In this document: one piece after another, positions 21,491-24,400 of the stretch
How positions within the stretch are numbered: position 1 is the first letter of the stretch
Layout of the letters: each line of letters opens with the position of its first letter
Assembly: GCA_048213135.1 (NCBI GenBank)
Contig: PS015113.1
Coordinates: forward strand, 1 to 64,000
Source: Reclinomonas americana ATCC 50394
Lineage: Eukaryota
Direction of reading: 5' to 3'
Length of the DNA stretch: 64,000 bases
Position numbers and translations under genes: made by a program
Notes under the pieces: generated by a model
What the model was told of the DNA's origin: nothing
Databases searched by the model: none
The model's input: only the letters and a program-made list of their open reading frames with translations

Positions 21491-24400
21491 CTATGGTGGA
21501 GGCGGTGGCGCACCGAAGATGCGCTGCAATTCCTGGAGCACACGGGACATGGAGGGTCTGTCGATGGCCTTCCTCTGCACGAACGACAATGAGAAGTCGC
21601 CCGCAAAGGGTACTTGTCAACATAACCAACTCACCCAGCAAGCCGCCACCAACTCGCTCAACGCGTCGTTGAGCTGTGGGTGATCGAGCGCACCAGGCAG
21701 TCTGCCTTGGTGAACCTCCACTGGAATACGCAAACTGTCGACGCCTTTGAACGGCTCCTGTTGAGTGACGCAGTACCACAGAAGCGTCCCAAACGAAAAC
21801 ACATCGGCTCGCTCATCGTACTGCCCGGGCCCAGTGCGTCAGCAACGACATGACGAAGAACAGCACGCAGGTCGTGTCACTATACCTCTTCGCCGAGCAG
21901 CACCTCAGGAGCAGCGAATGCTGGTGTGCCCACTGGAGTCTGCAATCGTCCCAACGTGCCCTGTTCACGAGCCTCGCCAAAGTCGCACACTTTGGCGGTC
22001 TGCCGATCGCCGCTGATGAGAACATCTGCAAAGCAGGGAGGCAGTCAGAAAACGCACTTCAGTGAGAAGCAAACGCAAAAGCAACGCGAAAGGCGATGAA
22101 AGTACTCGATCGCGAGGTTGAATAGAGATAAAGGACATTGAACATCCCCTCCGGACTCCATCGGCCCAGAGAGGTGGCATCCAGAAACACAACTTTGGGG
22201 CTTTAGATCTCGATGCACCACTCTTCGCGAGTGCATGTGTTCCACCGCCAAGCCAACTTGCACCAGAAGCCGTAGCAGATGCTGTTGACCAATTCCGCTC
22301 CGCACAAGTTTGAGCAAAGTCTCAGGGAGGTCGTCAATCTTGTCTGGCCCGACATACTCAAGCACCAGTCCAGGGCCGTGAGGGTCATCTTCGCATACGG
22401 CCACCAGTTTGACAATATGCGGGTGGCTGTTCATGTATGCGAGTGGGTACGATACCGACGGGTGATATGCTCACCATGCGTGACGCAACTCCAGGCGCAT
22501 GAGCAAGCGCTCCTCATTCGTGACACACTGCATCATCTCCAGTCTGCGGTCGTCATCGGGGTGCTCAAAACGTTTGTATGCCACCACAATGCCTTCGCCG
22601 CCGACAATCATCACAGTTCGGTAGACGCGACATGTGTTCTGGCCTGCAAGAAGTCAAAATGAGTGTTCGAACACTAAACACAACCAAGGGCTTCTCCCGA
22701 GTGCAAGCGAACCAACGCCAATAAACTGTGGGCTGCCGAATTCTTCGCGCTTGATGCGCGGTGCGTGTACAAGGAGCTTCTTCTTCTCCTCGTTTAATAA
22801 CTCATCTGTAACTTGAATCTGGCTCACTCCTGCGACATCAAATCAGACGGTTTGTCAGAAGAAAGCGCAGCACGGAATGGTAATCGACGCAACGCTGGTA
22901 GGACTCAAACAAACGGTCAATGCATGCGTGCCCCGCAGGGAACAGGCATTGCAGGCAGTCTCTGATGGTGCGAACAATTCCAACGTACTCAGCGTCGGTC
23001 AGTGACGTCGATTCGGCCAAGTGCGACACGCGATTGCGCGCATTACGCATTCGGTCCACAGCATCAATCTGCATTATCGGCATGCAGTGAGGGCGACGAT
23101 TGAATTGCTTCCAATGTCGACCGCCTCACAGACCTTTTCGGTATCACTCAGCAGCCGCATCGCCACCCGGTCTTCAGCAGGTCCGGCAACATCTGCGCCG
23201 ATTCGTGTGCTCCGATTCCACAAGTCAGCGTCAGCACATCGTGCAATCGGGACGTAGGTGATCTCGAGAAGCAGGGTTGTCAGAAGGCTGACATCCATGT
23301 CTGTCACAGATCCATTCCGTGCGAATTCACACACGGCCTCGAATTTTTCGCGGAACACTTTTGCCGTTCGAGTGTGCATCTTTCCAGCGTCGTCGACCGA
23401 CATCCACACATATCTTGCGATGAATTGTCATGAGTGCTGCTCACTGCAGTGAACAGAGAGAGAGCACACAAACCTGCCACATGGACGGTCACAACAGAGA
23501 TTTGTGATGTCGAATTCGCCGGGATAGAAGCCCGAGATCAGCTGCTGGAATAGGGAGGCGAGAGCGAAGGGCACCACATTGTGCATGATCTCGGTGAGCA
23601 TGAAGATGGGTCGACGGTCACTGCAGATACTGACAGGTGAGATGTCTCGAATAAAGCAACGGATTATGGCAATGGAACAAAGTACCTCAAGAAATCCATG
23701 TGGAAGAGAGCCTCCAGCTGCTGTCGGAGACGCGCAGTCTGCTGCGTCTGCTCATCCAGGGCCAGCTGCAGGTGAGCGATTGTTGCGTCGCGAGACTCTA
23801 CTGTCTCCTGTAAGTGCTGTGAAGCAGATTGTAGCTCGGCAACAACAGCGTCGTTTTCTTGTTGTCGCTCGCGAAGACAGCGTTCAAGGCGAGTGACCGT
23901 AATATGGAGTTGTGTTCTGTCGAATTCCGCGGCACGCAGCTCGCTCAGTTGACGCTGGAGTTGCATCAAGACAGCCTCCGCCTCTTGCAGGCGACTTGAA
24001 TTGCCAGACTACAAATAACCAGCAGCGCGAGTTAGCTGAAACATCCGGATCCGAAGAAACTGCTATAGCGCACCTCTGCAGCTGATAGTAGCGGCGCATG
24101 CCGAGGAGAGGTGGTTGGTACGACTGTCACAGCAGGAAGCAAAGAAGGGTCGCCGACTGTGTTCAACAAATTGGCACTAAAGTATGTCATCACCACTTCA
24201 TGAGACGAGAAACAAACCTCCCGGAGGCGATTCTCGTACATGCCGAGAGGAGGAATCTTGCTCGACAAGCAACGTGGGCAACTTAGCCACGTCGCATTTA
24301 TCCGCGGTACGAGCCACGTGGGCAGCCGTCTTGCCGTCCTTGTTGACCCTGGGAATCAGATGCGGATACGCAGTCGCCAGGAGTTGCACAATCAACTCGT

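What the first reader, a model, noticed from the sequence alone, without database searches (positions are those of the whole stretch)
22940..23629. Intron-split HEPN domain with intact RNxxxH motif
Seen: the spliced sequence GSVTDMDVSLLTTLLLEI...LW...EK|IDAVDRMRNARNRVSHLAESTSLTDAEYVGIVRTIRDCL, with RNRVSH at 23038-23021. Established: DZIP3/hRUL138-like HEPN domains show a D(I/V)(T/S)LL..LL helix, then R...RN....H and an sLsd.e(F/Y) motif, and Rx4-6H forms the catalytic site. Inference: catalytically competent RNase. The splice at 23473-23414 needs an AAG acceptor and is the least certain junction.
Basis: partly seen in the sequence, partly recalled or inferred. Interest (0 to 1): 0.8.

Follow-up and report, generated by a model that had tools for sequence, protein, structure and literature searches.

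The report
Possible HEPN RNase helix beside kinase
A large, intron-split gene for an ankyrin-repeat protein kinase contains one short exon that looks like the catalytic helix of a HEPN RNase, but the match is below database thresholds and the rest of the supposed domain is unrecognisable.

Summary
The sequence is as described. RNRVSH lies at 23038-23021 (minus strand). The A/B junction (23134|23068) is a clean phase-0 GT..CAG intron of 65 nt. The upstream junction (23474|23413) needs an AAG acceptor and removes an in-frame TGA. The peptide sits in a well-supported gene: an ankyrin exon array, a coiled coil, exons C/A/B, then a six-exon protein kinase with its catalytic motifs intact. Twelve exons give 830 codons without a stop.

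The HEPN reading is only partly supported. The RNRVSH exon's only two Pfam hits are HEPN families: HEPN_DZIP3 (E=0.056, 13.7 bits, cut-off 27) and DUF4145 (E=0.055-0.13). Its motif helix is 13/18 identical to a bacterial DUF4145 protein. Exon A, which carries the "DVSLL" helix, matches nothing. No homologue was found in any database. The spliced domain could not be scanned or folded with these tools. Fragment folds were uninformative.

Best reading: a diverged HEPN-type domain in front of an active kinase, similar in composition to RNase L (about 0.5). An active RNase is about 0.3. A chance motif in a helical linker remains a serious rival.

The parts
24218..31168 (-). Array of about 620-bp exons. 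Each encodes an ankyrin module of about 200 aa. There are 11 module starts, and N gaps lie inside the array. The 5' end of the gene is not defined.
   Evidence: ORFs. Ank_2 E=2.7e-21 and 5.2e-21 for two modules. Module starts and junctions. N runs at 25956-25975 and 27329-27687.
24074..24156 (-). Small linker exon E1 between the last ankyrin exon and the coiled coil.
   Evidence: Phase-compatible GT..CAG and GT..TAG introns of 61 and 65 nt. Codon test inconclusive.
23686..24008 (-). Coiled-coil exon D, about 107 aa.
   Evidence: Translation. Only weak coiled-coil-type Pfam hits. Codon log-odds +15.6 in the proposed frame.
23474..23620 (-). Exon C (an alternative acceptor gives a start at 23629). 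A predicted long helix followed by EFDITNLCC. It may be the first helix of the domain.
   Evidence: GT..CAG junction from D, in frame at either acceptor. Helix 8-34 in a low-confidence model. No family hit. Codon test inconclusive.
23414..23473 (-). Putative 60-nt in-frame intron, GT..AAG, containing a TGA at 23430-23428. This is the least certain junction.
   Evidence: AAG is the first AG after a CTCATGAC branch-like site and the only acceptor that enters frame A in the phase left by this donor; a longer intron from another donor (23495) to 23301 is also frame-compatible (my reading). One other AAG acceptor lies in the ankyrin array, at the 27235 junction.
23134..23413 (-). Exon A, 93 aa, with DMDVSLLTTLLLEI. 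Coding, but with no detectable family.
   Evidence: Codon log-odds +16.8. No Pfam or PADLOC hit. No atlas hit. No homologues.
23069..23133 (-). 65-nt phase-0 intron, GTCTGT...TGCAG.
22915..23068 (-). Exon B, 51 aa. HEPN-type catalytic helix DAVDRMRNARNRVSH (RNRVSH at 23038-23021), then SLTDAEY and a second helix. An alternative donor lies at 22893.
   Evidence: HEPN_DZIP3 E=0.056-0.1 and DUF4145 E=0.055-0.13. 13/18 identity to a DUF4145 protein. Protein-atlas score 0.88 to a PF18738 cluster. Helices 4-18 and 25-42 at pLDDT about 75.
21494..22829 (-). Six protein-kinase exons K1-K6: 22829-22713, 22643-22475, 22426-22194, 22025-21886, 21820-21635, 21574-21494. The stop TAG is at 21493-21491.
   Evidence: Pkinase E=9.4e-12 (45.3 bits, cut-off 31.7) and PK_Tyr_Ser-Thr hits. 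VAYK, HRDLKPQN, DFG and APE are present in the joined frame. Junctions.
16080..20111 (-). Paralogous ankyrin-exon array of at least 6 modules that lacks the coiled-coil/HEPN-like/kinase cassette.
   Evidence: ORFs. 24278-24399 matches 16316-16437 at 88%, and 20668-21189 matches 15620-16123 at 90% over 526 bp. Alignment.

Best explanation
The stretch is part of one large minus-strand gene of an unidentified eukaryote. The protein has a very long ankyrin-repeat array, a coiled coil, an all-helical region of about 190 aa encoded by exons C, A and B, and a C-terminal protein kinase with its catalytic motifs intact.

Exon B carries a helix with the HEPN RNase signature: R-N-x3-H, preceded by R..R and followed by a short loop and a second helix. 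The most likely reading is that C/A/B form a strongly diverged HEPN-type domain, nearest to the DZIP3/hRUL138-like and DUF4145 families.

By analogy with RNase L and Ire1, the ankyrin array would bind a ligand or partner. The coiled coil and kinase would drive dimerisation. Two HEPN domains would then form a composite, metal-independent RNA-cleaving site.

Shown: the gene model, the ankyrin and kinase domains, and the motif with its sub-threshold family hits. Inferred: the HEPN fold of the whole region, the dimer-dependent RNase activity, and any role in defence or stress.
For: Gene model: 830 codons with no stop across 12 exons and 11 GT-AG introns. Ankyrin and kinase hits lie well above the cut-offs. 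The kinase motifs are intact.

HEPN signal: the only two Pfam families that hit exon B are both HEPN families, and both centre on RNRVSH. DUF4145 is named as a HEPN family in PMC3710099 (passage read). From one search's figures, I calculate that HEPN_DZIP3 alone would reach this score by chance about 0.003 times over the window's six-frame translation. None of 149 control ORFs hit a HEPN family. A tblastn search of 7.3 Gb of plasmids puts the best-E match on the motif helix of an annotated DUF4145 protein, 13/18 identical. Exon B beats 300 of 300 shuffles of itself on a DUF4145 profile built from 29 genomic members. The protein atlas lists a 100% PF18738 cluster at 0.88 (a lead only).

Context: Rx4H with N after R is the commonest form in DZIP3-like HEPN proteins (PMC9646362). 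Ankyrin fusions are listed for this family (PMC3710099 Table 1 passage).
Against: Every HEPN score is below threshold (13.7 against 27 bits; 14.0 against 23.1). About 10% of control ORFs get some Pfam hit at this level (15 of 149). These signals are not independent, because they all read the same helix of about 20 residues.

Exons A and C, two thirds of the supposed domain, match nothing. Adding A lowers the DUF4145 profile score. No strict E-x3-[K/R] motif is seen upstream (my reading of the translations).

No homologue was found among 1.84 billion representatives. The 4 hits are tandem-repeat artefacts. The word-based searches and the metagenome scans also found none, so conservation cannot be shown.

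One junction needs an AAG acceptor. If that intron is retained, the reading frame stops before the domain.
Confidence: 0.5

Rival explanations
1. The region is coding, but it is only a helical linker or regulatory segment in front of the kinase. RNRVSH and its flanks resemble the HEPN helix by chance, and the protein has no RNase or RNA-binding function.
For: All HEPN scores are sub-threshold, and hits at this level are common (15 of 149 control ORFs). Exons A and C have no similarity to any HEPN profile. No homologues exist to show that the motif is conserved. Structure searches gave only generic helical matches.
Against: Both Pfam hits and the best plasmid match all fall on HEPN proteins, and on their catalytic helix. 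By chance, HEPN families would be a tiny share of such hits (0 of 149 controls). The domain size and the ankyrin context fit the DZIP3-like family.
Confidence: 0.3
2. It is a true HEPN-derived domain that no longer cuts RNA. It serves as an RNA-binding or dimerisation module that regulates the kinase, which is the real effector.
For: The kinase has every catalytic motif, so it is an effector in its own right. PMC3710099 notes non-catalytic HEPN domains that bind nucleic acids (abstract and section 6). No RNase activity has been shown for the DZIP3-like family in the papers I read; PMC9646362 calls it 'putative'. No clear upstream acidic E-x3-[K/R] motif is present.
Against: R, the following N and the H are all present with canonical spacing. 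In PMC3710099 section 6 that is taken to imply RNase activity.
Confidence: 0.12
3. The locus does not make the long protein. Either the 60 nt at 23473-23414 are not spliced and the in-frame TGA ends an ankyrin/coiled-coil protein, or the HEPN-like/kinase part starts separately at the ATG at 23406, or the cassette is a decaying remnant.
For: The junction needs an AAG acceptor, whereas 22 of the other 23 junctions read use YAG. Exons C and A are in one frame, separated by a single TGA. The neighbouring paralogue lacks the whole cassette.
Against: The donor CAG|GTTTGT matches the commonest donor of this gene. An AAG acceptor also occurs at the 27235 junction. All downstream exons are open, phase-compatible and keep the kinase motifs, which argues against decay.
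Confidence: 0.08

Closest known systems
DZIP3/hRUL138-like HEPN domain (Pfam PF18738)
   Same: It is the best Pfam hit of exon B, aligned without gaps to profile positions 81-122. The motif is Rx4H with N after R, the commonest form in this family (PMC9646362). Fusion to ankyrin repeats is listed for the family (PMC3710099).
   Different: The score is half the curated cut-off. The first 80 profile positions are not detectably matched. The helix-to-motif spacing is longer. [quoted passage not shown] No paper with such a fusion turned up in two full-text searches.
RNase L / Ire1 (kinase plus KEN domain, a HEPN-superfamily RNase)
   Same: The parts list is the same: ankyrin repeats, a kinase fold and a HEPN-superfamily element in one polypeptide. 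The proposed logic is also the same, with ligand- or stress-driven dimerisation assembling the RNase site (KEN architecture from PMC3710099 Table 1; the dimer mechanism is recalled knowledge).
   Different: The order is reversed: here the HEPN-like part lies N-terminal to the kinase. The element is not a KEN domain, as no Ribonuc_2-5A hit was returned. A coiled coil is present. The ankyrin array is far longer.
DUF4145 (Pfam PF13643), a bacterial HEPN family
   Same: It is the second Pfam hit (E=0.055-0.13). 13 of 18 residues are identical over the catalytic helix of WP_329600501.1 on plasmid NZ_CP136753.1.
   Different: The similarity is confined to that helix. A profile of 29 members gains nothing from exon A. 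Most of those members carry G-N-x3-H with an R four residues upstream rather than R-N-x3-H.

Membership tests
HEPN superfamily | Rx4-6H motif with a polar residue (N, D or H) directly after the R (PMC3710099 section 6) | tested here: met
   RNRVSH at 23038-23021, in frame in exon B.
HEPN superfamily | All-alpha four-helix up-down bundle of about 100-120 aa, often with an insert between helices 2 and 3 | tested here: inconclusive
   The spliced domain could not be handed to the fold tools. C+A read through gave pLDDT 36.7.
HEPN superfamily | Second conserved acidic residue upstream, typically E-x3-[K/R] | tested here: inconclusive
   There is no strict E-x3-[K/R] in exons C or A. D-x3-K and D-x3-R do occur (read). 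The paper calls this feature typical, not universal.
HEPN superfamily | Profile match above the curated threshold to a HEPN-clan family | tested here: not met
   HEPN_DZIP3 scored 13.7 bits against a cut-off of 27. DUF4145 scored 14.0 bits against 23.1.
HEPN_DZIP3 (PF18738) | Match across the 144-position profile, including the N-terminal helices | tested here: not met
   Only positions 81-122 align (70-122 if intron-encoded residues are included). Exon A, exon C and C+A give no hit at E<=10. A+B as one chain could not be scanned.
RNase L / Ire1 KEN-kinase | KEN domain C-terminal to a kinase or pseudokinase domain | tested here: not met
   The reading frame ends 27 codons into the last kinase exon. 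No KEN-family hit appears in the Pfam scans.
Eukaryotic protein kinase | Pkinase profile above the cut-off, plus the VAxK lysine, HRD, DFG and APE motifs | tested here: met
   Pkinase scored 45.3 bits against a cut-off of 31.7. VAYK, HRDLKPQN, DFG and APE are present in the joined frame.
Ankyrin-repeat proteins | Ank profiles above the cut-off | tested here: met
   Ank_2 scored 76.4 and 75.4 bits against a cut-off of 27.3.

The most novel reading that the evidence does not exclude
An unidentified protist has independently built an RNase L-like sensor and effector. A giant ankyrin array acts as sensor, a coiled coil as dimeriser, a DZIP3-type HEPN domain as RNase, and an active kinase follows, with the RNase placed in front of the kinase instead of behind it. 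The 3.1-kb effector cassette is present in one of two tandem paralogues and absent from the other, which would show recent shuffling of an effector module.
Probability: 0.22. Interest if true: 0.65.

Novelty: new variant of a known kind. Interest (0 to 1): 0.4.

Why it matters
If the HEPN reading holds, it would be the first DZIP3-type HEPN domain fused to an active protein kinase that I could find. It would also be a second, independently assembled ankyrin + kinase + HEPN architecture beside RNase L and Ire1. That would make the idea that kinase-driven dimerisation is a general switch for HEPN RNases testable in a new system. The neighbouring paralogue without the cassette offers a natural comparison. 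If the reading fails, the locus is an ordinary giant ankyrin-kinase gene.

Tried and rejected
- **Whole genome:** none is held for this window.
- **RNA evidence:** no RNA holder was listed by the look-up of sequencing runs.
- **Word-based homologue searches:** exon A and exon B, both run for longer proteins only (206-2000 and 134-2000 residues), found nothing.
- **phmmer of exon B against 1.84 billion representatives:** 4 hits, all tandem-repeat translations whose many stretches of about 3 bits add up. I rejected them as artefacts.
- **Ankyrin-module search:** 24 generic ankyrin proteins at 26-40% identity, none carrying PF18738. Three with kinases have the kinase at the N-terminus and no HEPN-like part.
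- **Metagenome scans:** exons B and A returned nothing.
- **Other libraries:** PADLOC gave nothing. PDB phmmer gave only chance Mog hits at E>=0.06. tblastn of exon A against plasmids and of exon B against phages gave E>=5.
- **Protein atlas, exon A:** no usable hit, recognition 1567.
- **AlphaFold2 of C+TGA(read as W)+A:** pLDDT 36.7, unusable. The same protein had no Pfam hit.
- **Fold search with the exon B fragment model:**
  - Foldseek found nothing at E<=0.001.
  - I give these no weight. The scores lie in the range the tool calls common for helical bundles, residues 52-76 of the model are read-through past the preferred donor, and the alignments put the RNRVSH helix on helix 1.
- **Complex prediction (exon A peptide with exon B peptide):** the queue was full and the tool was then declared not available. 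Nothing was folded.
- **HEPN_DZIP3 in bacterial genomes:** no match above the cut-off in 2 genomes, so no family alignment of PF18738 could be built.
- **Alternative acceptors for exon A:** CAG at 23444 and 23437, AAG at 23380, and CAG at 23301 with the 23473 donor. All were rejected because of the in-frame stop or the wrong phase (worked). A 195-nt intron from the donor at 23495 (GTTGTG) to the CAG at 23301 is phase-compatible and was not excluded; it would remove the first 38 residues of exon A.
- **Earlier findings of this scan:** nothing relevant.

Full report
**What the window is.** The window is a draft eukaryotic scaffold with 19 runs of N and 34-62% G+C per 2-kb bin. No whole genome is held for it, and no earlier notes of this scan touch it. 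The organism is not identified. The best database relatives of its ankyrin modules are only 26-40% identical and come from mixed sources.

**The observation.**
- ORF 23427-23077 contains ...GSVTDMDVSLLTTLLLEI...LW...SDTEK.
- ORF 23125-22841 contains IDAVDRMRNARNRVSHLAESTSLTDAEYVGIVRTIRDCL.
- RNRVSH lies at 23038-23021.
- The junction between them is a donor AAG|GTCTGT at 23133 and an acceptor TGCAG| at 23069. It is 65 nt and phase 0.

**The gene around it.** Working through, I built a model and tested it. The exons, on the minus strand, are:

| Exon | Coordinates | Content |
|---|---|---|
| Last ankyrin exon | to 24218 | ankyrin module |
| E1 | 24156-24074 | linker |
| D | 24008-23686 | coiled coil |
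| C | 23620-23474 | helix (alternative start 23629) |
| A | 23413-23134 | DVSLL helix |
| B | 23068-22915 | RNRVSH helix |
| K1-K6 | 22829-21494 | protein kinase |

- The stop codon is at 21493-21491.
- The 12 exons join into 2490 nt, 830 codons, with no stop.
- All 11 introns are GT-AG and 48-168 nt long.
- Pfam supports the ankyrin repeats (E about 1e-21) and the kinase (Pkinase E=9.4e-12, above its cut-off).
- VAYK, HRDLKPQN, DFG and APE are all present.
- Upstream, 11 exons of about 620 bp each encode an ankyrin module of about 200 aa, from 31168 to 24218. N gaps lie inside the array and its 5' end is not defined.
- Codon-usage log-odds, trained on the Pfam-supported exons, favour the proposed frame for D (+15.6) and A (+16.8). 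They favour it weakly for B (+1.1, still the best of six frames). They are inconclusive for C and E1.

**The doubtful junction.**
- Exons C and A are in the same reading frame, separated by one TGA at 23430-23428.
- The proposed 60-nt intron (23473-23414) removes that TGA.
- Its donor CAG|GTTTGT is the commonest donor type in this gene.
- Its acceptor is CGCAAG|. Of the 24 junctions I read (13, 11), 22 use YAG and 2 use AAG. The other AAG is at the 27235 junction.
- The two CAGs upstream (23444, 23437), the AAG at 23380, and the CAG at 23301 when paired with the 23473 donor either run into the stop or have the wrong phase.
- A different, 195-nt intron from a donor at 23495 (GTTGTG) to the CAG at 23301 is phase-compatible and was not excluded. 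It would remove the first 38 residues of exon A.
- AAG is the first AG after a branch-like CTCATGAC.
- I accept the junction as plausible but unproven. If the 60 nt are retained, the protein ends before the HEPN-like part.

**Is it HEPN? Evidence for.**
- hmmscan of the exon B ORF returns exactly two families: HEPN_DZIP3 (E=0.056, 13.7 bits, cut-off 27) and DUF4145 (E=0.13).
- For the exact exon the values are 0.1 and 0.055. HEPN_DZIP3 aligns to profile positions 81-122 without gaps.
- DUF4145 is treated as a HEPN family in PMC3710099 (passage).
- Dividing one search's E-value by the 24,736 models and scaling to the window's six-frame translation gives about 0.003 chance hits for HEPN_DZIP3 alone. 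This is my calculation.
- As a control I scanned a random 149 of the 391 other 60-124-aa ORFs of the window. 15 of 149 had some hit at E<=0.15, and 0 of 149 hit a HEPN family. I judged clan membership of those families by name, from recall.
- tblastn of exon B against plasmids gave two matches. The one with the better E-value (0.4) lies on the motif helix of an annotated DUF4145 protein, 13 of 18 identical.
- I built a profile from 29 DUF4145 domains taken from 300 scored genomes; 30 genomes had matches and the unpublished one was dropped. On it, exon B scores 6.9 bits, above all 300 shuffles of itself, whose best is 4.4.
- The protein atlas lists a cluster that is 100% PF18738 at 0.88. The tool itself calls scores under 0.9 a lead only.
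- The motif form, Rx4H with N after R, is the commonest in DZIP3-like HEPN proteins: 131 of 202 in a pearl oyster carry Rx4H, and 194 of 202 carry Rx4-6H (PMC9646362, passages read).

**Is it HEPN? Evidence against.**
- All of the above reads one helix of about 20 residues plus its loop, so the lines of evidence are not independent, and every score is sub-threshold.
It gives no Pfam hit at E<=10, alone or read together with exon C. It gives no PADLOC hit and no usable atlas hit, with recognition 1567, in the range of shuffled sequences.
- Exon A adds nothing on the DUF4145 profile: A+B scores 5.5 bits against 6.9 for B alone.
- No true homologue of exon A or B was found anywhere, so conservation of the motif cannot be shown.
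- C+A read through the TGA folded at pLDDT 36.7.
- The exon B fragment folded as helices at pLDDT 75, with RNRVSH inside helix 4-18. Its fold matches are generic helical bundles.
They remain recalled.

**How it most likely works.** Taking the evidence together, I put about 0.5 on a real but diverged HEPN-type domain, and about 0.3 on an active RNase. The parts list is ankyrin repeats, a dimerising coiled coil, a HEPN-type element and a kinase. That is the list of RNase L and Ire1, where a kinase-fold dimer brings two HEPN-superfamily KEN domains together. The KEN architecture is from PMC3710099; the dimer mechanism is recalled. Here the order is reversed and the element is not a KEN domain. 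The main rival (0.3) is a chance motif in a helical linker. Lesser rivals are a non-catalytic HEPN remnant and a product truncated at the TGA.

**Context worth noting.** A second ankyrin-exon array (20111-16080) is a paralogue.
- Its last module matches 24278-24399 at 88%.
- Its 3' flank matches 20668-21189 at 90% over 526 bp.
- The roughly 3.1 kb between those two matches in the first copy, which holds E1, the coiled coil, C/A/B and the kinase, corresponds to only about 190 bp in the second copy.
- The effector cassette has therefore been gained or lost between tandem paralogues.

[quoted passage not shown] Two full-text searches (DZIP3 + HEPN; HEPN + ankyrin repeat + protein kinase + RNase L) found no paper describing such a fusion. 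If real, this is a new variant of a known kind. As it stands it is an interesting but sub-threshold candidate: interest 0.4.

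Noticed in passing
window 31168-24218 and 20111-16080, minus strand: Two tandem arrays of near-identical exons of about 620 bp. Each encodes an ankyrin module of about 200 aa that begins ..RRKKAWLMA.. and ends ..LDRLASQPPH.R. The modules are joined by introns of 58-76 nt.
   Followed up: partly
window 24278-21189 compared with 16316-16123: Segmental duplication in which one copy carries the 3.1-kb coiled-coil/HEPN-like/kinase cassette and the other has only about 190 bp between the shared flanks (88% and 90% identity).
   Followed up: partly
window 27240, minus strand (junction before the module starting at 27235): This ankyrin-array junction has GAAG| where the paralogous junctions have ACAG| or GCAG|. 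It is a second AAG acceptor in the same gene, or a defective module.
   Followed up: no
window 54039-55944, plus strand: A DEAD-box helicase gene in at least three ORF pieces (DEAD E=7.3e-34 and 5.3e-13; Helicase_C E=4e-18).
   Followed up: no
window 48531-49115, plus strand: An ORF with IQ calmodulin-binding motifs (E=3.6e-12).
   Followed up: no
window 15482-15907, plus strand: An ORF with a CotH kinase match just above the cut-off (E=1.5e-5, 25.1 bits against 23.8). It lies inside the duplicated flank region.
   Followed up: no
window 9911-11746, minus strand: A 612-codon open frame with no Pfam family. It is rich in acidic runs, poly-T(hr), poly-G and microsatellite-derived stretches. It could be a low-complexity protein or non-coding sequence.
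   Followed up: no
proteins P0001-P0004: The only 'significant' phmmer hits of exon B in the 1.84-billion-protein library (E down to 2e-35) are translations of tandem repeats. Their 6-32 weak stretches add up. This is a trap for short queries.
   Followed up: yes
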